The notes under the pieces were generated by a model. That model had not been told where the DNA came from and made no database searches. It saw nothing but the letters and a program-made list of their open reading frames with translations. Below are positions 455-19,317 of a DNA stretch of 64,000 bases, piece by piece. Origin of the DNA: an uncultured delta proteobacterium (GTDB taxonomy: Bacteria; Myxococcota; Myxococcia; Myxococcales; Myxococcaceae); the NCBI GenBank assembly GCA_963711265.1, contig CAVQDL010000016.1, forward strand, positions 13,235 through 77,234, in the 5' to 3' direction. Position numbers and translations under genes: made by a program. Positions within the stretch are counted from its first letter, which is position 1. Each line of letters opens with the position of its first letter.

Positions 455-526
455 GGGCGGGTAGCTCAGCGGTAGAGCATCGCCCTTACAAGGCGAGGGT
501 CACAGGTTCGACCCCTGTTCCGCCCA
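455..526 (+). tRNA. tRNA-Val (anticodon TAC)
   Basis: Canonical cloverleaf GGGCGGG-TA-GCTCAGCGGTAGAGC-A-TCGCC CTTACAA GGCGA-GGGTC-ACAGG TTCGACC CCTGT-TCCGCCC-A. CCA is not encoded. Confidence 0.9.
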
Positions 527-541: not shown

Positions 542-615
542 GGGGAGTTAGTTCAGCTGGTTAGAACGCCGGCCTGTCACGCCGGAGGTCACGGGTTCAA
601 GTCCCGTACTCCTCG
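542..615 (+). tRNA. tRNA-Asp (anticodon GTC)
   Basis: Cloverleaf GGGGAGT-TA-GTTC AGCTGGTTA GAAC-G-CCGGC CTGTCAC GCCGG-AGGTC-ACGGG TTCAAGT CCCGT-ACTCCTC-G. Confidence 0.9.
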
Positions 616-674
616 CTTTTCACCCAGTAATTCGGGGGTTCTGGTTCTTGTCACTCAGTGGTGGGTTTTGACGA
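593..674 (+). repeat. left direct repeat (attL-like): the tRNA-Asp 3' end (gggttcaagtcccgtactcct) plus the 30-nt block ttcttgtcactcagtggtgggttttgacga
   Basis: The same 21-nt tRNA 3' fragment and 30-nt block recur contiguously at 10087-10137. Extra partial copies (gggttcttg tandem units and ttcttgtcactcag at 714-753) suggest repeated integration scars. Confidence 0.6.
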
Positions 675-1272
675 AAAGCTGATTAGGCACACGCGTTTAG
701 GAGTCTGAGACGGGTTCTTGGGTTCTTGGGTCTTGGGGGTTCTTGTCACTCAGCCGCAGCCAGGTTGGGCGCGCATTGAGGCGGCATCCCTCGTGGCACC
801 TCGCCGTAGACTCCGGCGCATGCTCCCCCAGCTCGTCTTGGACTCGTACGCCTTCACCATCGTCCACCGCGACTACCGCGAGCCGATAGCCGATAGCGAT
901 GGCCGATGGCGCATGGTTCCAGGCGCGTGAGGACCTGAAAACCGACCCGCTGACGTGCTCCATGCTGACAGTGCCGAAGGAAAAAGCTCTGGTGCTCAAC
1001 CTGCCCGACACCATCAAGGCAGGCACTCCGCTGAGCTTTGTGCTGCAGCGCGGAGCCGGCGCTGCCACGCTGGCGCTGCGAGTTGAGACGGCTGAGCTGG
1101 GAAAGCAGTTCAATGACGCGTGGAACTAGACCGGCCGTAATTCAGTCCAGCAGCGCTTCGCGCTGACGGGCGTAGTCGAGTCGTACAAGGAGGCCTGACC
1201 CCTGCCGCTGCCAGGGCGCCCCCACCGGTCCGAGGAGACGAGGTACTGTCTTGCAGAGTCCCGAGGGGCTGC

Positions 1273-4005
1273 ATGGCCGAATCAAATTCCGAGAACGCGG
1301 GTCAGGATGAAACCCTCGCCTCCGGGCAGAGGGTCACCGCCGCCGTTTCTCCGGAGTCTGACGGCCCAGGGCGACTCGGCCCTTACCAACTTCTGGAACT
1401 CATTGGCGAGGGTGGCATGGGGGAGGTGTGGCTCGCCGAGCAGCTCGAGCCCCGGCGCAAGGTGGCCATTAAAGTCATCAAAGCGGGCATGGACACCAAA
1501 CAGGTGGTGGCGCGCTTCGAGTCCGAGCGCCAGGCCCTGGCCCTCATGGACCACCCCGCCATCGCCAAGGTTTTCGACGGCGGGAGTACGCCCGAGGGCC
1601 GGCCTTACTTCGTCATGGAGTACGTGGCGGGCGTCCCGATTACGGAGCATTGCGACACGCACAAGCTGTCCACCACGGCGAGGCTCGAACTCTTCACCGA
1701 GGTCTGCGAGGGGGTTCAGCACGCTCACCAGAAGGCCATCATCCACCGGGACTTGAAGCCGTCGAACATTCTCGTGTCGCTGGTGGATGGGAAGGCTCAA
1801 CCCAAGATTATTGATTTTGGCATCGCCAAGGCCACCGGCTACCGGCTCACCGAGAAGACGCTCTTCACCGAGTTGGGCGCCATCATCGGCACGCCCGAGT
1901 ACATGAGTCCGGAGCAGGCCGACCTCACCGGACAGGACGTGGACACGCGGACGGACGTCTACTCGCTGGGTGTCCTCCTCTATCAGCTTCTCACCGGGGA
2001 ACTGCCATTCGGCTCGAGAGACTTGCGGTCCTCCAGCTATGAGGAGCTGCGCCGAAAGCTGAGAGAGGTGGAGCCGCCTCGGCCCAGCACCAAGCTCAGC
2101 ACCCTGGGGGATGGCGCGGCGCTCACCGCGAAACGCCGAAGCACCGACCCGGGCGCACTCCGACACCAGCTGGAGGGAGACCTCGACGCCATCACCATGA
2201 AGGCGCTCGAGAAGGAACGCGCTCGGCGGTACGGCACGCCGTCGGAGTTTGCCGCAGACATCGGGAGGCACCTCCGCAACGAGCCGGTGCAGGCCCGGCC
2301 GCCCAGCGTCGGGTACCGCGTCGGGAAATACGTCCAGCGCCACCGCGTGGGAGTGGGGGCGGCCGTCGGCCTGGCCGCGCTCCTGGTGTCATTCGCGGTC
2401 CTCATGGCAATTCAGGCACGGCAGACCGCTTTGGAGAGGGATAGGGCCAACGCCGAGAGAGACCGGGCCGATCGTGAACGCCAGGCGTCGGAGAAGGTCT
2501 CGGCGTTCCTGGCCAACATGCTTGGGACGTTGAAGCCGGAGGCGCTGGGGACTGCGCTCTGGACGGACCTGCACCAGGGCGTCGCGACGACGCGGCGCAG
2601 TCGCGGCGCATCCGACCAGGAGGTGGCGAAGGCCATCGCCTCGCTCGACGAGGATCTTCGCGGGGTGAGCCCGACCCAGACGGCGCTTCAACTCCTGGAC
2701 GCGCAGGTCCTCGACCGGGCCGGGAAGACCGTCGAGCGAGAGATGGGCTCCGACCCGAGGACCGCCGGGAGTCTGGAATTCACTCTGGGGAAGACCTACC
2801 GCAATCTCGGTCTCTACAAGCAGGCCGAGGAACACGCCCGGCGCGCAGTCGAGATCCGACGCCGCGCCTTTGGTGTCGAAAGCCTGGACACCCTGCAGGC
2901 CATGAACATCCTGGCTGTCGTTTATTATTACGAAGCGAATTACGGCGAGGCAGAGAAGCTCGACCAGGAGACCCTCGCCGCCAAACGACGGATGCTCGGA
3001 CCGGAGCACCCCGAGACCCTCCAGTCGATGAACAACCTTGCGATCGTCTACGACGCCGAGGGGCGCTACGACGAGGCCCTGAAGCTCGACCAGGAAACCC
3101 TGGACGTCAAACAACGAGTCCTGGGGCCGGACCACCCCGACACGCTCAATTCGATGAACAACCTCGGAATGGTCTACTTCGACAAGGGCGACTACGAGAA
3201 ATGCGAAGAGCTCATGCGCGAGGTGCTCGACATCAGGCGCCGGGTGCTTCCAGACCGACCGGAAACCCTGGACTCCATCAACAATCTCGCTGAGGTTTAC
3301 AACGCTCGGGGCCGTTATCGGGAGGCTGAAGCGCTCTACCGCGAATCTCTGGAGGCAAAGCGCAGGGTCCTCGGGCCGGAGCATCTGGCGGCGCTCCAGA
3401 CGGCGCAGAACCTCGCCGACGTGTATGCGGCGGAGGGTCGCCATGAGGAGGCCGAGAAGCTCTCTCGCGAAACCGTGGCAATTTCACGGCGGGTGCTCGG
3501 CGCCGACCACTCCCTGACTCTCGTGATGATGGGCAGCCTCGCTCGCGCCTATGCCGACGAACATCGGTACCGGGAGGCAGAGCGGCTCGCGAGCGAAGTG
3601 CTCGAAACCTCTCGGAGGGTGCTCGGTGCTGATCATCCGAGCACGCTGGCAGCCCTCTCACGGCTGTCAGACGTCGACAATGCCCAGGGTCTCTTCGCAA
3701 GGGCGGCGCCACTGGCCCAGGAGGCGCGCGCCGGATACGAGCGCATCGGGAGCAAGACCGGCCCGGGCATGGGGAACGCCCGCGCCGCGCTCGGCCGCGC
3801 ACTATCCGGTCTGAAGCGCTACCCCGAGGCCGAGGGCGAGTTCCTCGGCGCGGAGCGACTCCTGTCCGCCGGCAAGGGCCGGGACTACAAGCAATGTCTC
3901 GAATCGGTAGTGGAGATGTACCGCGCCTGGGACAGGTCCGAGCCCGACAAGGGCCACGCCGCACAGGCGGCGACGTGGAAGGCGAAGTTGGACAGTCCTC
4001 GATGA
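1273..4005 (+). CDS. serine/threonine protein kinase with a C-terminal TPR-repeat domain
   Basis: Kinase motifs are GEGGMGEVWLA, VAIKVIK, HRDLKPSNIL, DFGIAK and GTPEYMSPEQ. A TM segment follows, then more than 8 TPR-like repeats (NNLAIVY..GRYDEA). Confidence 0.9.
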   Translation: MAESNSENAGQDETLASGQRVTAAVSPESDGPGRLGPYQLLELIGEGGMGEVWLAEQLEPRRKVAIKVIKAGMDTKQVVARFESERQALALMDHPAIAKVFDGGSTPEGRPYFVMEYVAGVPITEHCDTHKLSTTARLELFTEVCEGVQHAHQKAIIHRDLKPSNILVSLVDGKAQPKIIDFGIAKATGYRLTEKTLFTELGAIIGTPEYMSPEQADLTGQDVDTRTDVYSLGVLLYQLLTGELPFGSRDLRSSSYEELRRKLREVEPPRPSTKLSTLGDGAALTAKRRSTDPGALRHQLEGDLDAITMKALEKERARRYGTPSEFAADIGRHLRNEPVQARPPSVGYRVGKYVQRHRVGVGAAVGLAALLVSFAVLMAIQARQTALERDRANAERDRADRERQASEKVSAFLANMLGTLKPEALGTALWTDLHQGVATTRRSRGASDQEVAKAIASLDEDLRGVSPTQTALQLLDAQVLDRAGKTVEREMGSDPRTAGSLEFTLGKTYRNLGLYKQAEEHARRAVEIRRRAFGVESLDTLQAMNILAVVYYYEANYGEAEKLDQETLAAKRRMLGPEHPETLQSMNNLAIVYDAEGRYDEALKLDQETLDVKQRVLGPDHPDTLNSMNNLGMVYFDKGDYEKCEELMREVLDIRRRVLPDRPETLDSINNLAEVYNARGRYREAEALYRESLEAKRRVLGPEHLAALQTAQNLADVYAAEGRHEEAEKLSRETVAISRRVLGADHSLTLVMMGSLARAYADEHRYREAERLASEVLETSRRVLGADHPSTLAALSRLSDVDNAQGLFARAAPLAQEARAGYERIGSKTGPGMGNARAALGRALSGLKRYPEAEGEFLGAERLLSAGKGRDYKQCLESVVEMYRAWDRSEPDKGHAAQAATWKAKLDSPR

Positions 4006-4200
4006 AGGTGACGGTGCGCTCGTCACCATCGCCTAGCGACCCCGAGGTGCCCCCGGGCTGAGGCCGCCCTGCACCCAGGGCTATGCGGGCGGCCGCAACT
4101 GTGATTGGTTCCTTGGGTGTGGGAAGCGCCCGCACGGTCATTGGTGGTAGAGGTACGAGGACGGCAGGGCGGGCAACCCCTCGCCAGACCGAAAGGTGTC

Positions 4201-5085
4201 CTACGCTTCGCGCGGCATCGCGCCCGCGAGCAAAAATACGGCGCCGCAGAACATTAGGGTATCTGCCAAGTAATTGAGGCCATTGTCGATGCTGGCGCGT
4301 TCCACTACTGCGATCGGCAGATAGACGACCAACTCTAAGAAGAGCACTGTCAAGCCCAGCGATGTTGCGGCCGCGCGTGCTTTCCTGCCGACAAGCAAGA
4401 GAGTCCCCGCGAATGCGTAGACCACGGCCGCCAGATACGTCCAAATGGCGTGCCCGTAGACGTACTCCGGCGTCACCGGCCTCAGCGGAACGCCGGGGAC
4501 GTGATTGCCGTGCATGAATTGCTGAATGCTGTAAACCAGCACCGGAATTGCAATGAAGTATCGCGCAACCGTTGCAAGGCCGCGCTTGCGCGACGACTCT
4601 GTGAGGCTAGCTGCCAGCGCCAGAGCGCCTCCGCTGAAGGACAATTCGCGCAGCGCGAGCGTGAGTGCAAACCGATCGCGCGGGTCTTCTGCCCAACCTG
4701 GGACGTCCATCAGCACGACGAAAAAGAAGAACGTCAGGGCGAGCAAGCTTGCCGAAAGACGCGTCTGAATCCCCGTCACCAGGCTGACCGCTGCTGCGAT
4801 GAAACAAGCACCGATGAAGTACGCCCAAAAGTGATGCCACGGAATCCACGCTGGGACGATCGACGCGATGCCCTCCGTCCGCGTGAAATGTTCGGTGCCA
4901 AATGCCGCGAGTGGCGCCGCATAACAGACTGGCCCGAGCAGGATCAGCTTGTCGAAGCCTCGCGCCTTTGACCAATCGTGGCGAAGAACAGGCGCGACCA
5001 GCCAGATCGCAAGAACCGCTCCACCGACAAGGTACGACCACGTCACCTCGCTGGGAATCGCTCCTCTCACCACGATGCTTTTCAC
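4201..5085 (-). CDS. polytopic membrane protein, DoxX-like
   Basis: 294-aa ORF with about 7 hydrophobic helices and no soluble domain. Confidence 0.5.
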   Translation of the reverse strand: MKSIVVRGAIPSEVTWSYLVGGAVLAIWLVAPVLRHDWSKARGFDKLILLGPVCYAAPLAAFGTEHFTRTEGIASIVPAWIPWHHFWAYFIGACFIAAAVSLVTGIQTRLSASLLALTFFFFVVLMDVPGWAEDPRDRFALTLALRELSFSGGALALAASLTESSRKRGLATVARYFIAIPVLVYSIQQFMHGNHVPGVPLRPVTPEYVYGHAIWTYLAAVVYAFAGTLLLVGRKARAAATSLGLTVLFLELVVYLPIAVVERASIDNGLNYLADTLMFCGAVFLLAGAMPREA

Positions 5086-5606
5086 CCTCCCTCCGCCCTA
5101 GCCCGATGTTCCCCCTTCCCTGGGCGCTACGGCAAGGATGCAGCAAGCGGGTGCTGCGCAGCTGTGACTGGCGCCCCTACGGTCCCATGCTGGGCCGTAC
5201 CTCGGACTCACCCTCGAGCTGCCGCCAGTACCTTCGGGTGCGGCTGTTGCATCCTCGGTTTGCGGCGCCTCAGGTGCTTCAGAGCGACCGGAGCACTCGA
5301 ACACGGCCATCTGCTGGCTCGCGGTCGGTCGGGAGTGGTTGTGGACGACCTGGATGGCGTCCGGCGAAAGTCAGAACGCTCCGGACATCTACCTGGACGT
5401 GTGCTCGGTGGCGATCTCGGGGCCGGGCCAGCACGTCGTCCATGGGTCAGCATCATCATCGTCAAGCGGACCCGTAGAGGAACTGGTCTCGCCCGAAGCG
5501 GCTCGAGCGCTGGTGCAGAAGACGGTTACCCGCTTGTGGCGCCTCACGGCGGGTTGGCGTCCGATTACGTCCGAGGTAGTAGGCTGGCGACTTCGAGCCG
5601 GTCCCC

Positions 5607-6065
5607 CTAGAGCGCGGCCAGCACGTCGAGCGCCAGGGTCTTCTCGGCGCTCATCTGCTGGGGCTGGTCCTTCACTCCGTAAACCTTGAACAGGAACACC
5701 GTCTGACCCTTCTTGACGTAGAGCACGGCATACGGTGCCAGTGTCGCGTAGAACGCGTCGTCGCCGAGTCCGGGCGCTGGCGTGATCTTAGTTCCGGGAA
5801 GTGGGCCCGTCTTCACCCGGTTCCATTGCTCCGGGGGCCAAAGTGACAGGGTGACGATGACGTGCGGCGTCGCCGAGGTCCACGAGCAGCCGGTCGTGCC
5901 GATCGGCTGACCGGCGCCAAAGCCCCCGCCGAGCGCGGCGGCGACCTGCGCCGGGGTCAGCAGCTTGCAAGGCTCCGGGCCCGCCTGGGAGGCGCCGGCA
6001 ACGGTGAGCAGGCCGACTGCGCAGACCAGCCACCACCGGAAGGAGCGCCACCGTCTCCAGCTCAT
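5607..6065 (-). CDS. secreted/lipoprotein of unknown function
   Basis: The start was moved to the internal Met: MSWRRWRSFRWWLVCAVGLLTVAGASQA is a signal peptide. The upstream extension in the ORF track has no RBS logic. Confidence 0.5.
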   Translation of the reverse strand: MSWRRWRSFRWWLVCAVGLLTVAGASQAGPEPCKLLTPAQVAAALGGGFGAGQPIGTTGCSWTSATPHVIVTLSLWPPEQWNRVKTGPLPGTKITPAPGLGDDAFYATLAPYAVLYVKKGQTVFLFKVYGVKDQPQQMSAEKTLALDVLAAL

Positions 6066-6139
6066 GCCCCACCTCCAGAAAAGCAGCGGATTCATTGCAC
6101 CCATTCCCGGTCTCGGGCAAGAGCCGGAAGTGCTGGGCG

Positions 6140-6340
6140 CTATTTGTGCGAGAAAACCTCTGGCGTTCGCGTCTTCGGATTTCGCACTGCCTCGAAGAAA
6201 AGCTCGACATCCTCGGCCGTAATGCGCAGGGCATGCGAAACGCGGACGTGCCGCAGCTTCCCGTCGGCGCACAGCCGGTAGATGGTGACAGGGTTCACCC
6301 GCAGCCTTGCCGCAGCCCCGCGCACGGTCAGGAGTGGCAC
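6140..6340 (-). CDS. excisionase-family (MerR/AlpA-like) helix-turn-helix DNA-binding protein
   Basis: LLTVRGAAARLRVNPVTIYRLCADGKLRHVRVSHALRITAEDVELFF matches the excisionase-type HTH. A GTG start at 6340 avoids overlap with the TetR gene, but the ORF could extend to 6421. Confidence 0.55.
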   Translation of the reverse strand: MPLLTVRGAAARLRVNPVTIYRLCADGKLRHVRVSHALRITAEDVELFFEAVRNPKTRTPEVFSHK

Positions 6341-6350
6341 GGTACGCGCT

Positions 6351-6998
6351 TTAGCGGTGCCCGTCGCGCGCCGCAATTCCACGCCGCGGCAGGAGCACCA
6401 AGTCGGCCGCTTCCTCAGCATCTTTGAGGAGCGTCTTGCGCGGCGTGCCTATCCGCGCACGCATGGTCAGGCCACGAGCAAAATCCGTGACTTGGATCGC
6501 GCGCACGGCTACCGGAAAGTCAGGCGGGATGTCTCCCACACGGATCCCGTCCCGGAAACGGCGCTCCACCAGCGCCTCGGCGCCCGCGACAGTGCTCTGC
6601 AGGAACCGCCGAACCTCAGCGTCGTTCACAAGCGGCGCGACGCACACCAGAAGGCAGCCCCGGGCGGACCCTTTCTCGGTCGCACTTTCGACGGCGTACC
6701 TCAGAAAGCCCGCGATCGAGTCGCGAAGACCCTGTGGCGAGAGGAGTGCCTTCGCGGCTGATGCGCCCTTCCGTTCTGCGTACGCCCTAAGGACGCGCAA
6801 GAATATCGCCCGCTTGTCCCCGAAGACGGCATACAGGCTTGGCCGTCCCACACCCATTCCGGCGACGAGATCGTCAATCGTTACTCCGTCGTAGCCTTTC
6901 GACCAGAAGACCTGAGTCGCCTTTTCCAGCGCCCCCGTCTCGTCGAAGCTGCGCGGTCGTCCCCGCGGCCTAGCTGTATTTTGAATCATCTGGTTCAA
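6351..6998 (-). CDS. TetR/AcrR family transcriptional regulator
   Basis: N-terminal HTH GRPRSFDETGALEKATQVFWSKGYDGVTIDDLVAGMGVGRPSLYAVFGDK, 215 aa. Confidence 0.85.
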   Translation of the reverse strand: MNQMIQNTARPRGRPRSFDETGALEKATQVFWSKGYDGVTIDDLVAGMGVGRPSLYAVFGDKRAIFLRVLRAYAERKGASAAKALLSPQGLRDSIAGFLRYAVESATEKGSARGCLLVCVAPLVNDAEVRRFLQSTVAGAEALVERRFRDGIRVGDIPPDFPVAVRAIQVTDFARGLTMRARIGTPRKTLLKDAEEAADLVLLPRRGIAARDGHR

Positions 6999-7045
6999 AA
7001 CTCATTGACAATGGCCATCGCACGAATATATAACCGAACAGTTCG
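6979..7045. promoter_or_regulatory. divergent TetR/SDR control region: inverted repeat TTTTGAA-N8-TTCAAAA (6979-7000), sigma70-like TTGACA-N16-TATATA (7005-7032), palindrome CGAACAGTTCG (7035-7045)
   Basis: This is an AT-rich island inside 70% GC DNA, sitting between divergent TetR (6998) and SDR (7117) genes. The palindromes lie in operator positions. Confidence 0.4.
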
Positions 7046-7116
7046 AAATTAGCAAGCCGGCCCTGGCCTCGCGGGGCCTCACGACTCGACCTTCCCCCTT
7101 CACCACGGAGCCGCCC

Positions 7117-8076
7117 ATGGAACATTCGATCGCGCTCGTCACCGGCACCACCTCCGGGCTCGGTCATGCGGCAGCCCGCTTGCTCGCCATCGAGGGCTAC
7201 CGCCAGGTCATCGTCACCGGGCGCAGCCTGGCCCGGGTTCAAGAGACGGCCGCTCAACTCGCGGCTGAGACCAAGACACAGGTTTTCACGCCGCTGGAGC
7301 TGGATCTGGACGCGCCGACCAGCGTTCAATCCGCCCTCGCCGAGCTGGTCAAGCGAGGTCGGCCGATCGATTTCCTGCTGCTCAATGCAGGGATGGTCCC
7401 AGGCAAGAAGCGCGTGATCACGGCGGCAGGCGTCGAGGCGGCTCAGGCCCCGCTGATCGGCCATCATCAACTAACTGTCGGGTTGCTCCGCGCCAACCTT
7501 CTAAGCCCCAACGCGCGGATCGTTATCTCCGGCGCAGAACCTGCCCGAGGGGGCGTACCCCTGTTCAGCTACACCGACGTGCCAGCCTTCGCGGCCAAAT
7601 ACCACCAGGGTGACCGAACCGCCGCTGTGGAAGCCCTGCTGCGCAACGGGCCGAACGTGAGGTACGTGCCCAACAATGCGTATGCCGACGCGAAGCTCGT
7701 TATCGCTTGGTGGGTCGCGGCGCTGGCGCGGCGGCTACCCTCCGGCATGGCCGTGTACGCTGTCTCGCCCGGTGCGGCGACCGACACCAAGGTGGTGCGA
7801 AACGCTGGCCCGGCGCTGAAGTATCTGTTTATCCCAATCGTGAACCTCATTCCCGGCATGAATCAGACGCCGGAGACCGCGGCCCGTCGGTACCTCCAGG
7901 CGTCGGAGTTCGGAACAGACGTCTCAGGGCAATTCTTCGCCTCGGCTCAAGGGAAGGTCACAGGCCCAATTGAGGCGCAGCGCCACCCACACCTCCACGA
8001 TCGCGCCAGCCAGGAAGCCGCGTGGCAGGCCATCGTCAAGGTCTCTGGCGCCGATTTCTCTTCCGCCGCAACTTGA
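7117..8076 (+). CDS. short-chain dehydrogenase/reductase (SDR) family oxidoreductase
   Basis: The Rossmann motif VTGTTSGLGHAAA is present. It is divergent from the TetR gene. Confidence 0.85.
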   Translation: MEHSIALVTGTTSGLGHAAARLLAIEGYRQVIVTGRSLARVQETAAQLAAETKTQVFTPLELDLDAPTSVQSALAELVKRGRPIDFLLLNAGMVPGKKRVITAAGVEAAQAPLIGHHQLTVGLLRANLLSPNARIVISGAEPARGGVPLFSYTDVPAFAAKYHQGDRTAAVEALLRNGPNVRYVPNNAYADAKLVIAWWVAALARRLPSGMAVYAVSPGAATDTKVVRNAGPALKYLFIPIVNLIPGMNQTPETAARRYLQASEFGTDVSGQFFASAQGKVTGPIEAQRHPHLHDRASQEAAWQAIVKVSGADFSSAAT

Positions 8077-8361
8077 GAGCGGCGTCCTGAATGAGAGCCC
8101 GATCGCGGCTGAACTGATCCCGGTGACCAGAGTCAGCATTGCGATTGCGGAGCTACGTGGGCGTCCATGGGGCCTTAAGGTCTTTTGAACTAACTAGTTC
8201 ACAAATCACTTGACCGCAGCCTGCGCGTCTGATTATAGTTTTCCCGGCCCTTCAACGGCACTGGGTTATCCGTTTCGCTGCGTGGCGACCTTTCCGTGGG
8301 AGTCCCGCCGTGAACGACTGCCGCGCGGCCGTTAACCCGCTTCCCGCGATCCGGTGCGATT

Positions 8362-9096
8362 TCAGATGGCCGAGAAGCCGCCGTCGACAGACAACTCCAC
8401 CCCATTCACGAAGCTCGAATCGTGTGAAGCAAGAAACAGCGCCACTGTCGCAATTTCCTCAGGACGACCCATCTTTCCCCGCGGGATCAGGGATTCGAAC
8501 ATCCGCTTTGCCTCCCCGGTCAAAACCTGGTCCTGCATCGGTGTGGCGATCGGTCCCGGGCTCAGCACGTTTACCCGGATATTCCTGGCCTTCAGTTCGT
8601 TAAGCCAAGTGCGTGCGAATGAGCGCAACGCCGCCTTGCTCGCCGCATACACACTATAACCGGGAAAACCTTTCACCGAAGCAACTGACCCGGTCATGAA
8701 GATTGATCCGCCATCGTTGAACAGCGGCAACGCCTTCTGAACCGCAAACAGCGTGCCGCGCGTATTCAGACCGAAGGCCGCATCGAAGTGCTGCTCGGTA
8801 ATCTCGCCCAGTGGTACGGCTTCGCCCGTGCCAGCGCTCGCGTACAGGATGTCGATCTTGCCCTTCACCCGCTTGACCGTATCGAACAGGCGGTCGAGGT
8901 CTTCGAGATTCGCCGCGTCGCCGCGAACGCCGGTCACGTTGCGGCCAATCGCCTTCACCGCCTCGTCGAGCACCTGCTGTCGCCGGCCGGTGATGAACAC
9001 ATAGGCCCCTTCTTCGACGAATAGTTTCGCCGTCTCCAGCGCCATGCCGCTCGATCCACCCGTAATGACTGCAACTTTGCCTGCCAGCTTTCCCAT
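8362..9096 (-). CDS. SDR family oxidoreductase
   Basis: Motifs are AVITGGSSGMAL, the YAASKAAL catalytic Y..K and SPGPIATP. Confidence 0.9.
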   Translation of the reverse strand: MGKLAGKVAVITGGSSGMALETAKLFVEEGAYVFITGRRQQVLDEAVKAIGRNVTGVRGDAANLEDLDRLFDTVKRVKGKIDILYASAGTGEAVPLGEITEQHFDAAFGLNTRGTLFAVQKALPLFNDGGSIFMTGSVASVKGFPGYSVYAASKAALRSFARTWLNELKARNIRVNVLSPGPIATPMQDQVLTGEAKRMFESLIPRGKMGRPEEIATVALFLASHDSSFVNGVELSVDGGFSAI

Positions 9097-9125
9097 GACT
9101 GTTCACCTTTCGTCGTGTATCTTGT

Positions 9126-9138
9126 GGATCACTGATCC
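9126..9138. promoter_or_regulatory. palindrome GGATCAcTGATCC between divergent SDR and TetR genes (candidate TetR operator)
   Basis: A perfect 6-bp inverted repeat lies in the 56-bp intergenic region. Confidence 0.35.
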
Positions 9139-9176
9139 GGATATACGGTTCAGTGCTCCACTTGTCAAGGCAACCG

Positions 9177-9758
9177 ATGCGAGCCGACGCCAGGAAAAAT
9201 CACAGCCACCTGCTTGCGGTCGCGCGTGACGTCGTCACCGAGCACGGCGCCGATGCGTCCATGCGAGACATCGCCCGTCGGGCCGACGTCGGGTTGGCCA
9301 CATTGCTTCGTCATTTCCCGACGCGAGAGGCCTTGTTCGACGAGTTGCTGCGTACGAAGGCGGACGCTCTGACGCAGAAGGCAGCCGAGCTCGAAACGTC
9401 GAAGCCACCGGACGAAGCGCTCGTGTCCTGGTTTCGCGAAGGGGTGGCGTTCGTCCAAAGCTATAGCGGCGTTTGCGCCTTGATGGCGAGCGCCCACGCG
9501 GACCCGGACTCCGCGCTTTACGCTTCAAGCACAACGCTGCACACAGCCGGCGCGCGACTACTCGCCCGTGCTCAAGCCGTGGGAACGGCGCGCGCCGATA
9601 TGGATGGGGAGGACCTGTTCGCCCTGATGTCGGCGCTCGGCTGGGCGGTCGGCCAACCCTCATTCGCGCCGCGGGCCGATCATCTCTTTCGGATTATCGC
9701 GAGCGCCATCCTGACAAACCCATCGAGTAGCGACGTCAAGAAAGCGAAGCGTGCTTGA
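9177..9758 (+). CDS. TetR family transcriptional regulator
   Basis: The HTH motif is RDVVTEHGADASMRDIARRADVGLATLLRHFPTREALF. The start could instead be at 9153. Confidence 0.8.
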   Translation: MRADARKNHSHLLAVARDVVTEHGADASMRDIARRADVGLATLLRHFPTREALFDELLRTKADALTQKAAELETSKPPDEALVSWFREGVAFVQSYSGVCALMASAHADPDSALYASSTTLHTAGARLLARAQAVGTARADMDGEDLFALMSALGWAVGQPSFAPRADHLFRIIASAILTNPSSSDVKKAKRA

Positions 9759-10086
9759 AGACCGTGCCGTTTCTCCCGGCTGACCCAGCCGGGCCTAATG
9801 GTTAGTTTCGAGATTCGTATCACGCCCGACGGCCGCGCCAATGGCCATCGAGTACTGGCAGAGCCTCGGCTACCTCTACCTTTTGAACGGGCTCGCTCGC
9901 CTCGGCGCTGAAAGTCTTCGGAGAGCTTGTAGGGGTAATTTCCGTCTCCAGTATTTCTCCAAGCCGGGGGAGGATTCGGGGGAACTCTGGAGGACTCGAG
10001 GGGACCAGATAGGCGCCCAAGTACCGAGGAGGACAAGCTTTTCGAGAAGCGACGTGTCATCGCGGGCTTGCGAAACCCCACCCCAA

Positions 10087-10137
10087 GGGTTCAAGTCCCC
10101 TACTCCTTTCTTGTCACTCAGTGGTGGGTTTTGACGA
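10087..10137 (+). repeat. right direct repeat (attR-like): a partial tRNA-Asp 3' end fused to the 30-nt block
   Basis: The sequence gggttcaagtcccctactcct + ttcttgtcactcagtggtgggttttgacga duplicates 593-613 and 645-674. Confidence 0.6.
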
Positions 10138-10186: not shown

Positions 10187-11353
10187 CTAGGCCCCCCACA
10201 CCTCGCGCAGAAGGCGCAAGAAGTTTCCCCCGAGCACCTTGGCGATTTGCAGATTGGAGTACCGGCGCGCGCTCAGGAGCTCCGCCAGACGCTCGAAGCG
10301 GTTTGCCACGTTGAGGTCCGGGATGAAGGTGTACACATTCGCATCCTCGCCGGGCGCCGCGATGCCCAGCTTCTTGCGCTCATTCACCTCATCGGCAAAC
10401 CTCTTCTGGAACTCCGGCGTCACCGCCACGGGCGAAATGGTGCCGTCCGTCCCGACGCCTACGTGGTCTTCCCCACAGACATCTAAGGCGTGCTGGATGT
10501 GGCGGAGGACGTCCTCGGCCATTGGCTGCCCTTGGGTGCGCAGGTATGGCATGAGGTAGATGCCAACGTAGCCGCCACGTTCTCGAAGCTTGCGCAACTC
10601 GGCGTCCGTCTTGTTGCGAGGGTGTGGCGCAACGGCGGCACAGCCGGTATGCGAGATGGCCACCGGCTGCCTCGAAGCGTCGATGGCCTCCAGGGTCGTG
10701 CGCTCGCCAGCATGGGACAGGTCCACCAGCGCCCGCTGGGCATTCAGCCGGGCGATAAGCTTCCGCCCAAACTCGGAGAGGCCCGCGTTACCCGGCTCCA
10801 TGCAGCCGTCGCCCACGAGGTTCCGGCGGTTATACGTGAGCTGAAAAATCCGAACGCCCAGGTTCCAGAAGGTCTCCACGCGCTCTAGGTCCTCGCCCAA
10901 CGGCGTCGTGTCCTGAAAGCCGTAAATGAGTCCCAGCCTGCCGCCGCCTTTAGCGTTGGCGACGTCGGCCGCCGTCCGGACTTCCAGAAGCACGTCGGGG
11001 CGCGCCGCGACCTGCGCCCTCCAGTAGGCTAAGTTGCGGATGGTTCTATCGTAGTCGCGCGCGTAGCTGCCCACGCCGCTGACGGTGAGATTCACGGCCG
11101 TCAGGCCGGAGGCGCGGACGTCTGCGAGAGCGGCTGCGCTGAGGGGCGCGAAGTCGTCGCTGCCATAGACACCGGGGCCACCGAGCGAATCGATGACCAC
11201 CGCGTCGCGGTAGCCGGGCCAGCCACCCGCCTTGGCAGGCGCGGCACGCACGACACGGCGCAGGGAGGCCGTCGACGTGACAAACAGCGACAGAAAGGTG
11301 CGGCGCGGAAAGAGATGCGGCATGGGCCTTGTGGCGCTCGGGCATGTTCTCAT
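10187..11353 (-). CDS. membrane dipeptidase (peptidase family M19) with a Tat-type signal
   Basis: LTYNRRNLVGDGC...VDLSHAGERTTLEAIDASRQPVAISHTGCAAVAPHPRNKTDAELR matches the M19 core. The N-terminus MRTCPSATRPMPHLFPRRTFLSLF carries an RR motif. The start is either 11353 or 11323. Confidence 0.85.
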   Translation of the reverse strand: MRTCPSATRPMPHLFPRRTFLSLFVTSTASLRRVVRAAPAKAGGWPGYRDAVVIDSLGGPGVYGSDDFAPLSAAALADVRASGLTAVNLTVSGVGSYARDYDRTIRNLAYWRAQVAARPDVLLEVRTAADVANAKGGGRLGLIYGFQDTTPLGEDLERVETFWNLGVRIFQLTYNRRNLVGDGCMEPGNAGLSEFGRKLIARLNAQRALVDLSHAGERTTLEAIDASRQPVAISHTGCAAVAPHPRNKTDAELRKLRERGGYVGIYLMPYLRTQGQPMAEDVLRHIQHALDVCGEDHVGVGTDGTISPVAVTPEFQKRFADEVNERKKLGIAAPGEDANVYTFIPDLNVANRFERLAELLSARRYSNLQIAKVLGGNFLRLLREVWGA

Positions 11354-11475
11354 GTGTGCCAGGAGACTGGGGGCGGCATCTTGAGCCAAACCGCGGTACG
11401 ACAGCCCTCGGGCGCTTTGCCTTGCGGTCGCCAGGTTCTTGGCTGACCCTTGTCCGCCCTGACGGAGGGCTTTCG

Positions 11476-13323
11476 ATGCGAAACAAGTCAGTGCAGGCTT
11501 GGGCCTGTCTCGTCCTCGCGACCGTTTCGGGGTGGACGTGGGCGAAGCCTGAGGAGGTAGGACCGGGCTACGACATTTCCATGAGCCGGATGGTGCCCAT
11601 GCGGGATGGCGTCGAGCTCGAGGCATGGATTACCAAACCCTCCCACCTCCAAGGGAAGGCGCCTGCCGTCCTCACCCTCACGCAGTACGACATCGACGAC
11701 GAGCGCCGGGGCGGCCCCCGGGGGGAAGCCCCGGGCTTCGCCAAGCGGGGCTACGTCTTCGTCCAGGTGCTGGTGCGTGGGCGCGGGCGGTCGGGTGGCG
11801 TTAAGAGCGACAACATCGGGCTGCAGGTGGGGCGCGACGGGTACGACGTGGTCGAGTGGATTGCTGCCCAGCCGTGGAGCGACGGCCACGTCTTCGCCTT
11901 TGGCGGCTCCTACGTGGGCATGACGCAGTGGCGCATCGCCGCGCAGCACCCCCCGCATCTCACTGCCATCGCCCCCTACGTGCCAATTTATCCGGGCTGG
12001 GACATCCCCAACACCAACGGCATTCCCCAAGCGTGGACAACCGTCATTCTGGGACTCGTCTCCGGACGCCAGCTCAACAATGGCTTCGGCGCAAACCCCT
12101 CGTATTGGATGGGGAAGATGCTCGAGCACTATGCCGCTCAGCGGCCCTTCTCCGAATTGGACGAGGCCATGGGCATCGCCGCCGACGACTGGTGGATGCA
12201 GGACGCGCGCGGAACGAGGCAATCCTTCTTCAAGATGTGGCTCGACCACGTGGGCGACGAGGCTTTCAACCTCGCGGCAGAACCCAAAGCTCAGGACTAC
12301 GCCCGGATGGACTTCCCCATCCTGACCGTGACGGGCTTCTTTGACGATGACCAACCGGGCACGCTTCGCTACTACCGCGCCTACGTGGCCCACGCCCCGG
12401 CCGCAGCGGTGCGACGCCACTTCTTCGTCATCGGCCCGTGGAACCACGGAGGCACCCAGAAGCCGAGCAAGGAAACCGACGGACTCGCCGTGGCCGACGC
12501 CGCCGTCTTGGACATGACGAAACTGCACGCGGACTTCTACGACTGGGTGCTGGGGCGCGGGCCGCAGCCCGGCCTTCTCCGCAACCGCGTTTCGTATTTC
12601 ATGATGGGCGCAGACGAGTGGCGCTATGCGGTCAGCCTCGAGGCCGCATCCTCTGGCAAGGAGGAAACCTTCTTCTTGTCGGCCCCAGAAGGCACGCCCG
12701 ATGACGTCTTCCATTCGGGGCGGCTGCTAGCGAAGGCGCCATCAGCCGAGCCTCCGGCGATGCTTCTTAGCGACCCGCGGGAGCTGCCGGAATTGGAGGT
12801 GGCCAACTACGCCCGTGCCGAGGACCTCACGAGCCAGTTCCGCGCATTCCAGAAGCGCGCCCTCAACTTCCATTCCGGACCCTTTGAGAGGGACACGGAG
12901 GTGGCAGGCCACATTCACCTCACCCTCATCGTCCAGGCCGACGCCCCCGACTTCGACCTCTGGGCGCAGCTCTTGGTGGTGTTCCCTGACGGCTCGGCGG
13001 TGCACCTGGGCGAGGACATACGTCGCGCGCGTTTCCGCCACAGCCCGTTCCAGCAGGAGCTTCTCAAGCCCGAGGAGGTGGTCGAGATTCCGTTCGAGTT
13101 TCTCTGGACGGCGCGGCGGATTCCGGCCGGAGCGCGGCTCCGGCTCACCGTGGCACCCCTCAATTCGCCCAGCTACCAAAAGAATTACAACAGCGGCGGG
13201 CGCGTGGGGTACGAGTCCCTAAAGGACGCGCGGACGGCCCACATTCGCCTGTTTCACGATGGCGCCCATGCGAGCCGGCTGGTGCTGCCCTTGGCTGCCC
13301 CATCGGTTGTCTCCGTCCCTTAG
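11476..13323 (+). CDS. CocE/NonD family alpha/beta hydrolase (S15 Xaa-Pro dipeptidyl-peptidase-like), secreted
   Basis: GGSYVGMTQW is the GxSYxG nucleophile motif. The signal peptide is MRNKSVQAWACLVLATVSGWTWA, with RBS ggaggg upstream of ATG 11476. Confidence 0.85.
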   Translation: MRNKSVQAWACLVLATVSGWTWAKPEEVGPGYDISMSRMVPMRDGVELEAWITKPSHLQGKAPAVLTLTQYDIDDERRGGPRGEAPGFAKRGYVFVQVLVRGRGRSGGVKSDNIGLQVGRDGYDVVEWIAAQPWSDGHVFAFGGSYVGMTQWRIAAQHPPHLTAIAPYVPIYPGWDIPNTNGIPQAWTTVILGLVSGRQLNNGFGANPSYWMGKMLEHYAAQRPFSELDEAMGIAADDWWMQDARGTRQSFFKMWLDHVGDEAFNLAAEPKAQDYARMDFPILTVTGFFDDDQPGTLRYYRAYVAHAPAAAVRRHFFVIGPWNHGGTQKPSKETDGLAVADAAVLDMTKLHADFYDWVLGRGPQPGLLRNRVSYFMMGADEWRYAVSLEAASSGKEETFFLSAPEGTPDDVFHSGRLLAKAPSAEPPAMLLSDPRELPELEVANYARAEDLTSQFRAFQKRALNFHSGPFERDTEVAGHIHLTLIVQADAPDFDLWAQLLVVFPDGSAVHLGEDIRRARFRHSPFQQELLKPEEVVEIPFEFLWTARRIPAGARLRLTVAPLNSPSYQKNYNSGGRVGYESLKDARTAHIRLFHDGAHASRLVLPLAAPSVVSVP

Positions 13324-13872
13324 CGAGCGCATTCCTCCTCCCGGAACGCCCTTCGCTTGCATCCGGAGCGTTGGGCATCGGCAGTCGGGCGGTGGGTGGA
13401 GCAGGCGCGGGCTGACCAAGGCAAGAGCACGCGTCCCCTGACGAGAAGGAAGACCCTTGGTAACCCAGTGAACCCCGTGAGTATAGGCGGTGAGCCGTGC
13501 GGGCCAACCAGTCGAAGCGCAGTTGCAGGCTGTGGTCGCTGTACTTCACCTTTTCGCCCGCGCTCCGGACTGTTGACGCGCTGCCAGATGATGCCAACTT
13601 CGGTGGCTTGGCTTGAGTCCGGCCGCGTCGATTCGCTGCAGCGCCTCACACCAGCGGGGGAGGGCATCCCCGCCAACCCGCTTCGCTCGGCGTCATGTAA
13701 AGTAGCCACTTCGGCACTCGATTGGGGCAGCGCATGCATCTCCAACAAGGTTGCGTTCCACCCCCGTAAGGCAAATGGTGCTGCTGCAGACATGGAAGCG
13801 ACTTCGGCGCCCTGCGTCGCTCAGGAGACCGGGAAGGCAAACGCGCCCGGGTGGGAGAGGAGGCTTGTGTAA

Positions 13873-14674
13873 ATGAAAGTCCAAGCACTGGAAGCGGCTG
13901 TCGAGCCTCTCGTGTTGCGTCGGGACGAAGAAGGGGTGGTGACGCTCACCCTCAACCGGCCCAAGCAATTCAACGCCATCAACGACAAGATGCTGGCCGA
14001 GATGCAATCAGCTCTGGACGCCTTGGCCGCGGATTCGTCGGTCCGCGTCGTCGTCATCGCCGGGGCCGGCCGCGCCTTTTGCCCCGGTCACGACTTGAAG
14101 GAGATGCTCGCCAATTCGAATGAAGCCTACGTCGGCGCCCTCTTCCAGAGGTGCTCCGATGTGATGCTGTCGATTCGGAGGCTCCCACAGCCTGTCATCG
14201 CCAAGGTCCACGGCATTGCCACCGCGGCTGGCTGTCAGCTTGTGGCAGCCTGCGACCTGGCGGTTGCCTCGGACGATGCGAGGTTCGCCACTTCCGGCAT
14301 CAATTTTGGGCTTTTCTGCGCCACGCCTGGCGTCCCTGTGTCTCGCAACGTTTCACAGAAACGTGCGTTTGAAATGCTGATGACGGGCGCCTTCATCGAC
14401 GCTCCGACAGCGCTGGCTTGGGGACTTTTGAACCGCGTGGTGCCGCCGGCTGCAGCTCGACGCGGCGGTGGCGGCGCTCGCCTCGGAGCTGAAGAAGAAG
14501 CCGCGCGCCGTGGTGGCTACCGGCAAGCGATTTTTCTACCGTCAGCTGGAGGAGAAACTGGCGGACGCCTACTCCGACGCGAGTAAAGTCATTACCGGCA
14601 ACATGCTGTCCGAAGATGGCCAGGAAGGTGTCGGCGCCTTCGTCGAGAAGCGCGCGCCGCATTGGCGAGATTGA
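13873..14674 (+). CDS. enoyl-CoA hydratase/isomerase (crotonase) with an apparent 1-nt frameshift near 14440-14470
   Basis: The N-terminal part (13873-14586) has VRVVVIAGAGRAFCPGHDL. The C-terminus (AVAALASELKKKPRAVVATGKRFFYRQ...EGVGAFVEKRAPHW) continues in a second frame (ORF 14468-14674). RBS gaggagg precedes ATG 13873. Confidence 0.6.
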
Positions 14675-15160
14675 AATTCCCTCGCTCGTAGGCCGATCGT
14701 TCCATTCGCGCCTGCCACCAGAGCGGGGCGCGCCGAAGGGACGCCGCCCGCGCCGTCTCGGGGGTTCGAGGTCGATGTCAACTACGTCGGCAGACGAACC
14801 TCCGTCTCTTCCTTCTCCAGGACTTCTCCAAGACGGGGGGGGATTGAGCGGAACTCCAGAGGATTCATGCGGACTCGGACCCGGGCTCAAGCGCCTCGAA
14901 AAGACAGCTCTTTCGACGAAAAGCCCCGTGCCAGCGCTGGAGCGAGAAGGGCACCTGCCGCACCGTTATTCGCCACGAGGTCACGGAACGAGGAGCGGGC
15001 CGGATGGTCGCTGCAAAACCCCATCGGTAGCACCGTCGACGTTGAGAACGCGACGTAGAGCAAACCCCGTCGAGTCGGCGCGCATGTCGGCGTCCAGGAA
15101 GCTCGCCGCGTTCAATCCCGCCGCCCGCGAACCAGGACCGGGGCCAGCCCCCGCGGCTCG

Positions 15161-17608: not shown

Positions 17609-17714
17609 CGGGGCCGAGCCTAGCGCCGGCCGTGGGGGGCGCTAGCTGATTGAGAGGTCAGTCCCGGCGATCCGCAATTGACCAGCCCCGCACCCTTTCC
17701 CTGTGTCGCGCTCG

Positions 17715-19217: not shown

Positions 19218-19317
19218 GCTCGGAGCCTAGCGAACTCCTCCACCGCGGTTCAAAGAGGAGCCGCCACCGCCACGGACGCGGTGCTAGTGTCCCTGGCCTG
19301 CAAGTCAGGAGGACACC

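What the first reader, a model, noticed from the sequence alone, without database searches (positions are those of the whole stretch)
593..10137. tRNA-Asp-anchored island remnant with repeated att-like scars and no integrase
The 3' end of tRNA-Asp (21 nt) and a 30-nt block 30 nt downstream of the tRNA are duplicated 9.5 kb to the right, fused together. A tandem run of GGGTTCTTG units and a third partial block copy lie just inside the left end (714-753). The cargo is accessory-like: a TPR Ser/Thr kinase, a DoxX-like membrane protein, a lipoprotein, an excisionase-type HTH and two TetR-SDR pairs. An excisionase-like gene remains but no integrase is present, consistent with an immobilised island or several rounds of integration and excision.
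Basis: seen in the sequence. Interest (0 to 1): 0.6.

Follow-up and report, generated by a model that had tools for sequence, protein, structure and literature searches.

The report
Decayed tRNA-Asp island with IS scars
The repeats are real, but they are two things side by side: an old phage-type attachment scar copied from the end of tRNA-Asp, and leftover tips of an insertion sequence that habitually lands just behind tRNA genes, so this is an ordinary, scrambled, immobile integration hotspot.

Summary
The last 21 nt of tRNA-Asp (593-613) recur at 10087-10107 with one mismatch. A 30-nt block (645-674) recurs exactly at 10108-10137. A 16-nt partial copy and a period-8 run lie at 712-753.

1. 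The tRNA-derived repeat is a true attachment-type scar. The tRNA 3' end matches the phage Mx8 attP core at 26 of 26 bases. The right-hand scar, with its upstream arm, is conserved next to the same peptidase gene in two related genomes.
2. The 30-nt block, the partial copy and the GGGTTCTTG run are not att sequences. They are the outer tip (IRR) of an ISL3-family insertion sequence.
3. Full copies of this IS elsewhere sit 6-111 nt behind tRNA or tmRNA genes, or behind tRNA 3' fragments. They often carry the same tandem tip units.
4. The cargo is a mosaic rather than one element. It holds a kinase module recently exchanged with a relative, a DoxX gene that lies beyond the peptidase pair in that relative's genome, and TetR/SDR genes.
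5. No integrase or transposase remains.

The island itself is ordinary. The tRNA-flank habit of the IS is the more interesting by-product.

The parts
455..526 (+). tRNA-Val (TAC)
   Evidence: ARAGORN; Rfam tRNA, 70.3 bits
542..616 (+). tRNA-Asp (GTC), the anchor
   Evidence: ARAGORN; Rfam tRNA, 71.5 bits
591..616 (+). Mx8-type attB core: 26 nt identical to the phage Mx8 attP core, which lies inside the phage int gene at Mx8 6444-6469
   Evidence: blastn 26/26. IMG/VR prophages L082 and L086 have an Mx8-like Int and Uoi reading into this same tRNA-Asp end.
617..642 (+). Spacer between the tRNA and the IS tip; its last bases (GGTTCT, 637-642) are a partial extra tip unit
   Evidence: Sequence. 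The first ~22 nt resemble the L077 spacer.
643..713 (+). Truncated outer end (IRR, 71 nt) of an ISL3-family insertion sequence, with its outer tip facing the tRNA.
   Evidence: 97% identical to the IS end in L077 and 81-93% to 14 other copies. In full copies, conservation starts exactly at GGTTCTTGTCAC.
712..737 (+). Tandem period-8 copies of the IS tip (GGGTTCTT, 3.4 copies)
   Evidence: TRF. The same kind of tip-unit arrays lie outside IRR in L087, L097, L099, L103 and L104.
738..753 (+).
899..4204 (+). Kinase module: a 76-aa ORF (899-1129) and a Ser/Thr kinase with TPR repeats (1273-4005). Shared with L015 at 97.6% nt identity.
   Evidence: Pfam. blastn and boundary alignments. Third-codon divergence is 0.035, against 0.12-0.16 for DoxX, M19, S15 and SBP/SLT. 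In L015 a 71-nt internal IS fragment abuts the left boundary.
4201..5085 (-). DoxX-like membrane protein gene. In the L015 genome it lies about 8 kb beyond the S15 peptidase.
   Evidence: Pfam DoxX, 31.2 bits. 91.6% nt identity to L080 and L081. Third-position divergence is 0.12.
5086..5606 (.). No convincing gene. Positions 5358-5538 are fragments of a gene that neighbours DoxX in metagenome contig L078, so this looks like decayed DNA.
5607..6110 (-). Putative lipoprotein, weak DUF3558 match below the Pfam cutoff
6140..6421 (-). HTH_17 (MerR/excisionase-type) DNA-binding protein
   Evidence: Pfam E 6.9e-10; PHROG 66 E 1.5e-7; no similarity to Mx8 Uoi
6351..6998 (-). TetR-family regulator
7117..8076 (+). 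Short-chain dehydrogenase-like protein (N-terminal match only)
8362..9096 (-). Short-chain dehydrogenase/reductase
9153..9758 (+). TetR-family regulator (SbtR-like C-terminal domain)
10014..10107 (+). Conserved att scar ('scar1'): an element-arm-like stretch (10014-10086) followed by a copy of the tRNA-Asp 3' end (10087-10107, 20/21 identical)
   Evidence: Homology with L001 starts at 10014. The same scar lies beside M19 in L001 and L015. Identity drops sharply 5' of the T-arm.
10108..10137 (+). Absent from L001 and L015.
10187..13323 (.). Conserved flank: M19 dipeptidase (10187-11626, -) and S15 X-Pro dipeptidyl peptidase (11329-13323, +). This is the only block collinear with L001, L002, L003 and L015.
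   Evidence: Pfam; blastn 88-94%

Best explanation
This is the tRNA-Asp attachment site used by Mx8-type temperate phages and elements in a Myxococcaceae genome. Behind it lies a decayed, rearranged and now immobile patchwork, not one island.

(1) The tRNA-derived part is a site-specific recombination scar. An integrase once crossed over in the T-arm/acceptor end of tRNA-Asp and left a partial copy of that end, with an element-derived arm on its left. That copy now sits beside the M19 peptidase gene. The scar predates the split from at least two related genomes.

(2) The 30-nt block, the 16-nt partial copy and the GGGTTCTTG run are solo outer tips (IRR) of an ISL3-family insertion sequence. 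This IS clade inserts a few to about 110 nt downstream of tRNA or tmRNA genes, and also behind tRNA 3' fragments. Its IRR end always faces the tRNA. That habit explains why a tip lies behind both the real tRNA-Asp and its scar. Both copies here were later truncated, to 71 nt and 30 nt.

Inferred, not shown: Mx8-type elements carry int directly against the tRNA. A deletion running inward from the left IS copy would therefore have removed the integrase. The period-8 tip units would come from reinsertion into the IS's own tip (8-bp target duplication) or from slippage.

The present cargo has mixed histories. The kinase module was recently exchanged with the L015 lineage. The DoxX gene occupies a different position relative to the peptidase pair in the L015 genome, at core-like divergence. 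The origin of the TetR/SDR/HTH_17 genes is unresolved.
For: Repeats verified.

Att part:
- The Mx8 attP core is 26/26 identical to 591-616.
- Two IMG/VR prophages have an Mx8-like Int (54% identity) and Uoi abutting the same tRNA-Asp end.
- Scar1 is conserved with its upstream arm in L001 and L015.
- L015 also has a second clean core copy, identical over 29 nt (12823-12851), with unrelated upstream sequence.
- L002 has a ~45-nt tRNA-Asp 3' fragment directly beside M19, next to DNA that encodes a DnaB-type helicase.
- Content between the tRNA and scar1 differs in every relative.

IS part:
- The block lies right after the stop codon of a DDE_Tnp_ISL3 transposase in L077 (Pfam E 5.6e-55). An imperfect inverted copy lies 1.34 kb away.
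- In eight copies of a 95%-identical transposase, conservation begins exactly at GGTTCTTGTCAC (IRR) and GGCTCTTGTCGC (IRL), and the flanks differ between insertion sites. One copy shows an 8-bp target duplication, CGTCCAGT, in L091.
- tRNA or tmRNA adjacency was seen at tRNA-Asp, Phe (twice), Gly-GCC, Gly-CCC, Ala, tmRNA and tRNA 3' fragments.
- Tip-unit arrays and solo IRR copies recur in L087, L097, L099, L100, L103 and L104.

Mosaic cargo: third-position divergence to L015 is 0.035 for the kinase and 0.12-0.16 for DoxX, M19, S15 and SBP/SLT. The DoxX gene lies elsewhere in the L015 genome.
Against: - No strictly empty site (tRNA-Asp directly followed by the peptidase) was found, so the boundaries of any single integration event are inferred.
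- Scar1's left arm shows no similarity to the Mx8 int C-terminus, which a Mx8-type attR should carry. The element that made it is therefore unknown.
- Only solo IS ends, and no transposase, are present in the window. Independent insertion at both places, as opposed to copying of one junction from the other, cannot be distinguished.
- Most comparison sequences are metagenome-assembled contigs, which can be chimeric near repeats. L015 is a long-read MAG with indels.
- The tRNA preference of the IS rests on roughly 14 sites, and spacing is variable (6-111 nt).
- Deletion of int by the IS is an inference.
Confidence: 0.75

Rival explanations
1. One reading: one integrated island (616-10086) bounded by a composite ~51-nt direct repeat (tRNA end plus block) that is the attL/attR pair. 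The tandem units and third block copy would be further att scars from repeated integration and excision, and the HTH_17 gene would be the leftover excisionase.
For: A direct repeat of the tRNA 3' end sits at both ends. An exact 30-nt repeat lies beside it. An HTH_17 gene lies inside the region. Content varies between relatives.
Against: The block is the terminal inverted repeat of an ISL3 insertion sequence, with a transposase and a matching inverted end in L077 and in many other loci. It is absent from the scar in L001 and L015. The modules inside have different ages and origins. HTH_17 is unrelated to Mx8 Uoi and no integrase gene lies beside it.
Confidence: 0.07
2. Scar1 is not an integration scar but the decayed remnant of a second, tandem tRNA-Asp gene, comparable to trnD2 and attB2 of Myxococcus xanthus. 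The DNA between the two copies would have accumulated by ordinary insertion and rearrangement.
For: M. xanthus has tandem tRNA-Asp genes carrying two neighbouring Mx8 attB sites (PMC13454183 and PMC6070905). The 26 nt 5' of the scar's T-arm keep 14/26 in-register identity with the anticodon arm, which random windows reach with frequency 0.007.
Against: Identity is 20/21 in the last 21 nt but 19/51 in the 5' 51 nt, which is within background (frequency 0.07). That is a step, not the even decay expected of a pseudogene. L015 has a second copy identical over exactly the 29-nt core region with unrelated upstream sequence. Neither ARAGORN nor Rfam scores the scar as a tRNA.
Confidence: 0.1
3. The segment between the two IS tips was moved or assembled by the IS itself, as a composite transposon or by IS-mediated inversion, deletion or recombination between two direct IS copies. 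On this view the tRNA-end copy at the right was carried along rather than made by an integrase.
For: IS tips in direct orientation bracket the region. An internal IS fragment abuts the kinase module in L015. Copies of this IS recombine with each other in other genomes: L088, L091 and L093 share flanks in different combinations. The DoxX gene lies on the other side of the peptidase pair in the L015 genome.
Against: Scar1 with its arm is present next to M19 in L001 and L015, which lack the IS tip there. The scar is therefore older than the IS event. Both remnants are the same IS end (IRR) in the same orientation, and no IRL or 8-bp target duplication flanks the segment.
Confidence: 0.08

Closest known systems
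Mx8 attB locus of Myxococcus xanthus (attB1/attB2 in the tandem tRNA-Asp genes)
   Same: The same tRNA (Asp, next to tRNA-Val here) is involved. The 26-nt sequence identical to the Mx8 attP core lies at the tRNA 3' end. A second, partial attB-like copy lies nearby. Prophages with an Mx8-like Int abut this tRNA in other genomes.
   Different: No prophage, int or uoi is present here. The second copy is 9.5 kb away and is a 3' fragment (22/26 to the core), not a tRNA gene. The M. xanthus locus itself could not be fetched for direct comparison.
tRNA-anchored genomic islands with tandem accretion and decay (tyrosine-integrase islands)
   Same: An intact tRNA at one end, a direct repeat of the tRNA 3' end at the other, strain-variable accessory content, and several scars in a row in a relative (L015: tRNA, scar2, scar1).
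   Different: There is no integrase, no compositional signature and no observed empty site. Part of the content lies elsewhere in a relative's genome at core-like divergence, which suggests local rearrangement rather than imported cargo.
ISL3-family insertion sequences
   Same: A 395-aa DDE_Tnp_ISL3 transposase with a zinc ribbon, an element of about 1.34 kb, imperfect terminal inverted repeats of about 30 nt starting with GG, and an 8-bp target duplication.
   Different: The window holds only solo IRR tips (71, 16 and 30 nt). This clade shows a regional preference for the 3' flank of tRNA and tmRNA genes, with fixed orientation and tandem tip units. I did not find this described for ISL3 in the papers I could search. 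ISfinder could not be consulted.
Target-specific insertion sequences such as the IS1202/ISAjo2 group at dif/pdif sites and REP-targeting IS
   Same: Repeated insertion in one orientation next to a recognisable class of chromosomal sites (PMC10132070 and PMC1525189, listed).
   Different: Those groups insert at a fixed distance from a defined sequence. Here the distance from the tRNA end varies from 6 to 111 nt and the recognised feature is unknown.

Membership tests
tRNA-anchored integrase-type genomic island | Intact tRNA gene at one boundary | tested here: met
   tRNA-Asp at 542-616
tRNA-anchored integrase-type genomic island | Direct repeat of the tRNA 3' end at the other boundary | tested here: met
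   10087-10107, 20/21 identical, 0 expected by chance; step-like loss of identity 5' of it
tRNA-anchored integrase-type genomic island | Integrase gene inside, usually next to the tRNA | tested here: not met
   No Phage_integrase hit in any island ORF. tblastn with Mx8 Int and four other integrase fragments gave nothing in or near the island; the only hit was a marginal one (E 0.023) near 56 kb.
tRNA-anchored integrase-type genomic island | Presence/absence polymorphism with an empty site in relatives | tested here: inconclusive
   Content differs in L001, L002, L003 and L015, but no relative shows tRNA-Asp directly next to the peptidase gene.
tRNA-anchored integrase-type genomic island | Composition distinct from the flanks | tested here: not met
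   GC is 0.60-0.67 and GC3 is 0.71-0.85 inside, against GC3 of 0.69-0.88 in neighbouring genes.
Mx8-type attB site | Sequence identity with the Mx8 attP core at the tRNA-Asp 3' end | tested here: met
   26/26 for 591-616; 22/26 for scar1
Mx8-type attB site | Recombination by an Mx8-type integrase | not testable with these tools
   Needs an integration assay. Indirect support only: prophages with an Mx8-like Int at this tRNA in other genomes.
Mx8-like prophage remnant | Int with internal attP, Uoi, or phage structural or replication genes | tested here: not met
   tblastn negative. PHROGs gave only generic kinase, SDR and HTH matches.
ISL3-family insertion sequence (for the 30-nt block and tip units) | DDE_Tnp_ISL3 transposase flanked by terminal inverted repeats | tested here: met
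   Met in full copies carrying the same end (L077 and L087-L094). The window itself holds only solo ends.
ISL3-family insertion sequence (for the 30-nt block and tip units) | 8-bp target site duplication | tested here: met
   CGTCCAGT on both sides of the copy in L091. Not seen around the window remnants.
ISL3-family insertion sequence (for the 30-nt block and tip units) | Several copies in unrelated contexts, with conservation ending at the repeat tips | tested here: met
Excisionase (for the HTH_17 gene at 6140-6421) | Excisionase-type winged-helix/HTH_17 domain | tested here: met
   Pfam HTH_17 E 6.9e-10; PHROG 66
Excisionase (for the HTH_17 gene at 6140-6421) | Partnered with an integrase, or similar to a known excisionase of this att site | tested here: not met
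   No integrase is present. No similarity to Mx8 Uoi or p30. The gene lies between a TetR gene and a lipoprotein gene on the same strand.

The most novel reading that the evidence does not exclude
A clade of ISL3-family insertion sequences (transposases 64-95% identical to the L077 copy) selects the 3' flank of tRNA and tmRNA genes as its target. The targets include non-functional tRNA 3' fragments left by integrases. The IS always inserts with its IRR end towards the tRNA, and it builds arrays of 8-nt tip units or solo IRR copies there. One possible basis is that its repeat tip (GGTTCTTGTC) resembles the T-arm (GGTTCAAGTCC). By inserting between a tRNA and the integrase gene of an island, it would be a recurrent cause of island immobilisation. 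The window's twofold 'tRNA end plus block' would be the footprint of this behaviour. The probability given here is for the preference being both real and not yet described.
Probability: 0.35. Interest if true: 0.55.

Novelty: new member of a known kind. Interest (0 to 1): 0.35.

Why it matters
The island itself adds little. It is another decayed, integrase-less patchwork at a tRNA site already known as the Mx8 attachment site.

It is useful as a caution. A long composite repeat at island ends can be two juxtaposed elements with different mechanisms. Treating the whole repeat as att would give the wrong boundaries and the wrong history.

The by-product may matter more. If an ISL3 clade really homes to the 3' flank of tRNA and tmRNA genes, it competes for the same safe harbours as integrases. 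It could explain how tRNA-linked islands lose their integrase. It would also offer a bacterial DDE transposase with a natural regional target preference that can be tested directly.

Tried and rejected
- Searching the phage collection with the tRNA end returned only phage tRNA genes. The Mx8 record had to be fetched and compared directly.
- tblastx of Mx8 against the window gave only compositional noise.
- Rfam and ARAGORN do not score scar1 or the tRNA fragments in L096 and L099.
- The exact-protein look-up of the M19 peptidase and of the 100%-identical DoxX representative found no contig, so the source record was not recovered.
- Magrini et al. 1999 (PMC93896) is not held.
- I considered the block as a Tn3-type inverted repeat, from memory of Tn3's end. 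I dropped this once the ISL3 transposase and the matching IRL were found.
- I considered a further degenerate scar at 9880-9975. The only supported similarity is a 37-nt motif that also occurs at 14809, so it is a small dispersed repeat and not scar-specific.
- GC, GC skew and GC3 do not mark the region.
- The stretch 754-898 matches nothing.
- No relic of the transposase or of any integrase lies near the IS tips.
Full report
**1. The observation**

tRNA-Val (455-526) and tRNA-Asp (542-616) lie on the + strand. The last 21 nt of tRNA-Asp (593-613) recur at 10087-10107 with one mismatch. The 30-mer at 645-674 recurs exactly at 10108-10137. Neither sequence occurs elsewhere in the 64 kb, and shuffles give zero matches for both.

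On the right the two pieces abut. On the left 31 nt separate them.

A 16-nt partial copy of the block lies at 738-753. A period-8 array (GGGTTCTT, 3.4 copies) lies at 712-737.

The gene list is right in substance:
- Ser/Thr kinase with TPR repeats, 1273-4005
- DoxX-like protein, 4201-5085 (-)
- weak DUF3558-like lipoprotein, 5607-6110 (-)
- HTH_17 protein, 6140-6421 (-)
- TetR regulators, 6351-6998 (-) and 9153-9758 (+)
- SDR enzymes, 7117-8076 (+) and 8362-9096 (-)

No integrase domain is present in these ORFs. tblastn with Mx8 Int and Uoi finds no homologue in the window. Four other integrase fragments give only one marginal hit (E 0.023) near 56 kb, far outside the island.

**2. The tRNA-derived half is a real attachment-type scar**

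The Mx8 genome (AF396866) carries a 26-nt stretch inside its int gene that is identical to window 591-616. [quoted passage not shown] Two IMG/VR prophages (L082, L086) have an Int 54% identical to Mx8 Int, plus a Uoi homologue, reading into the same tRNA-Asp end. The left end is therefore an Mx8-type attB.

The right-hand copy (scar1) is 20/21 identical over the T-arm/acceptor part. Over the 51 nt further 5' it is only 19/51, which is within background. That is the step expected of a crossover scar, not the even decay of a pseudogene.

Scar1, with about 70 nt of upstream arm, is conserved beside the M19 peptidase gene in two related Myxococcaceae MAGs, L001 and L015. It therefore predates their divergence.

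L015 also has a second copy that is identical over just the 29-nt core region (12823-12851), with unrelated upstream sequence. This gives the series tRNA - scar2 - scar1, as expected from successive integrations.

L002 has a ~45-nt tRNA-Asp 3' fragment directly next to the peptidase gene. The adjacent DNA includes a DnaB-type helicase gene.

**3. The other half is an insertion-sequence end**

A metagenome scan with the block's core found two contigs, L076 and L077. In both, the block lies behind tRNA-Val/tRNA-Asp. The block and the roughly 40 nt that follow it are nearly identical to the window, while the tRNA flank is only 84-89% identical.

In L077 the block sits immediately after the stop codon of a 395-aa transposase (DDE_Tnp_ISL3, E 5.6e-55, with the ISL3 zinc ribbon). 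An imperfect inverted copy (GGGTCTTGTCGCTTGGGGGTGGGTGAAAACG) lies upstream of the gene, which bounds a 1.34-kb element.

Eight loci encoding a 95%-identical transposase (P0129) show conservation beginning exactly at GGTTCTTGTCACTCAG on one side and GGCTCTTGTCGC on the other. The flanks differ between insertion sites, and some loci share a site. In L091 an 8-bp target duplication, CGTCCAGT, flanks the element.

The window keeps only the outer 71 nt (643-713), a 16-nt tip (738-753) and a 30-nt tip (10108-10137). All three have the same orientation, with the tip towards the tRNA or the scar. There is no transposase remnant. The tip next to scar1 is absent from L001 and L015, so it is a later addition in this lineage.

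**4. Why the two halves lie together twice**

In the IS copies whose IRR flank could be read, the IRR end lies 6-111 nt downstream of a tRNA or tmRNA gene, or of a tRNA 3' fragment. The transposase gene is always convergent with the tRNA. The sites are:
- tRNA-Asp: window, L076, L077, L100
- tRNA-Phe: L087/L089, and separately L098/L101
- tmRNA: L088/L090/L091
- tRNA-Gly(GCC): L093/L094
- tRNA-Gly(CCC): L103, L104
- tRNA-Ala: L097
- tRNA 3' halves that ARAGORN does not call: L096, L099

One copy (L095) is cut by another IS, and three have flanks too short to judge.

The loci L087-L105 were retrieved through the transposase protein, not through any tRNA sequence, so this part of the sample is not biased towards tRNAs. 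The preference explains why a tip sits behind both the true tRNA-Asp and its scar.

The same loci show short tandem tip units or whole solo IRR copies just outside the IRR:
- 20 nt in L087, absent from L089 at the same insertion site
- GGTTCTAC three times in L104
- a 40-nt solo IRR in L100
- others in L097, L099 and L103

The window's GGGTTCTTG run is therefore a recurrent by-product of this IS.

The period of 8 equals the ISL3 target duplication length. Reinsertion into the IS's own tip followed by recombination between the two copies would add one unit per round. That mechanism is my inference, and slippage is the alternative.

In L096, L100/L101 and L103 the IS lies between the tRNA and an integrase gene, whose reading frame runs into the IRL in L096 and L100. 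A deletion inward from such an insertion would remove int. This is a plausible but unproven reason for the missing integrase here.

**5. The cargo is a mosaic**

Only the M19/S15 peptidase pair (10187-13359) is collinear with L001, L002, L003 and L015. Both of its flanks differ in every genome.

- L001 carries a periplasmic binding protein, an amidase, a hydrolase and an AHSA1 protein between the tRNA and scar1.
- L015 carries Usp, rhomboid and kinase fragments, the same TPR kinase, scar2 and AHSA1.
- No integrase domain was found in the ORFs tested from these relatives.

The kinase module (899-4204) is 97.6% identical to L015. Its third-codon divergence is 0.035, against 0.12-0.16 for DoxX, M19, S15 and SBP/SLT. 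This indicates recent exchange between the lineages. In L015 a 71-nt internal IS fragment abuts the left boundary of the module.

The DoxX gene has core-like divergence, and in the L015 genome it lies about 8 kb beyond S15. The two genomes therefore differ by a local rearrangement; the core-like divergence argues against recent import, but which arrangement is ancestral was not determined. Positions 5086-5606 hold only fragments of a gene that neighbours DoxX in L078.

GC and GC3 do not distinguish the region from its flanks. PHROGs gives no phage functions. The HTH_17 protein is generic: it is unlike Mx8 Uoi and lies between a TetR gene and a lipoprotein gene on the same strand.

**6. Verdict**

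The locus is a decayed, immobile patchwork at a known kind of phage and island attachment site. It has one ancient att scar. The rest of the 'att-like' repeats are solo ends of an ISL3 insertion sequence.

As an island it is ordinary. The unexpected point is the apparent tRNA/tmRNA-flank preference of the IS clade. I did not find this described in the papers I could search. I could not check ISfinder, so it is reported as the novel case with moderate probability.

Caveats: most comparison sequences are metagenomic contigs, no empty site was seen, and the order of events (IS insertion, truncation, loss of int) is inferred.

Noticed in passing
window 27806-30215: An array of 15 tRNA genes on the - strand (Leu, Met, Arg, Phe, Asp, His, Ile, Glu, Asn, Gln x2, Gly, Lys, Thr, Trp) within 1.8 kb. 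An HNH endonuclease gene lies immediately beside it at 27806-28381 (-), with Pfam HNH_5 E 1.3e-15.. Its origin (chromosomal array or mobile element) was not examined.
   Followed up: partly
window 31101-31165 (+): A tRNA-Pro(UGG)-like 3' fragment running from the D-arm to the acceptor 3' strand (T-arm GGGTTCAAATCCC). Its 5' acceptor strand does not pair, so ARAGORN does not call it. It may be an att scar of another element, next to the tRNA array.
   Followed up: no
L076, L077, L087-L105 (IS copies): ISL3-family IS copies lie 6-111 nt 3' of tRNA or tmRNA genes or tRNA 3' fragments, always with the IRR end proximal. Several lie between the tRNA and an integrase gene. Many have tandem tip units or solo IRR copies.
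   Followed up: partly
window 9940-9976 and 14809-14845; L015 11521-11539: A 37-nt motif (TTCCKTCTCCAG..TTCTCCA..CGGGGG.GGATT) occurs twice in the window in intergenic DNA, and a 19-nt core of it matches L015 after scar1; by eye a similar stretch also follows scar2 in L015. Function unknown.
   Followed up: partly
window 13359-19244 versus L015/L080: To the right of the S15 gene, the ECH and SBP/SLT genes keep the same order as in the L015 genome but each is in the opposite orientation relative to the peptidase pair. L015 has a patatin gene between them, whereas the window has an MscS-type channel gene. The whole neighbourhood is rearranged.
   Followed up: partly
L015 15945-16075: L015 has a ~136-nt insertion between the 76-aa ORF and the kinase gene. 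It has inverted ends (CTGTCACAAGCTGTCACAG ... GTGACAGCTTGTGAC) and looks like a small palindromic or MITE-like element. It is absent from the window.
   Followed up: no
L001 about 11650-11720 (reverse strand), just left of scar1: The DNA reads like a fragment of a Lon protease N-terminal domain (YAMGTVARIVKLLKMGEDNYSL). Read by eye only.
   Followed up: no
window 4201-5085 (-): The DoxX-like protein has more than 100 cluster representatives at 75-89% amino-acid identity in soil metagenomes, in varied gene contexts. One is labelled Limnocylindrales. This is unusually high conservation for an uncharacterised membrane protein.
   Followed up: partly
window 2887-3387: 126-nt internal direct repeats in the kinase gene. 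They correspond to the TPR_12 repeat units of the protein and are ordinary.
   Followed up: yes
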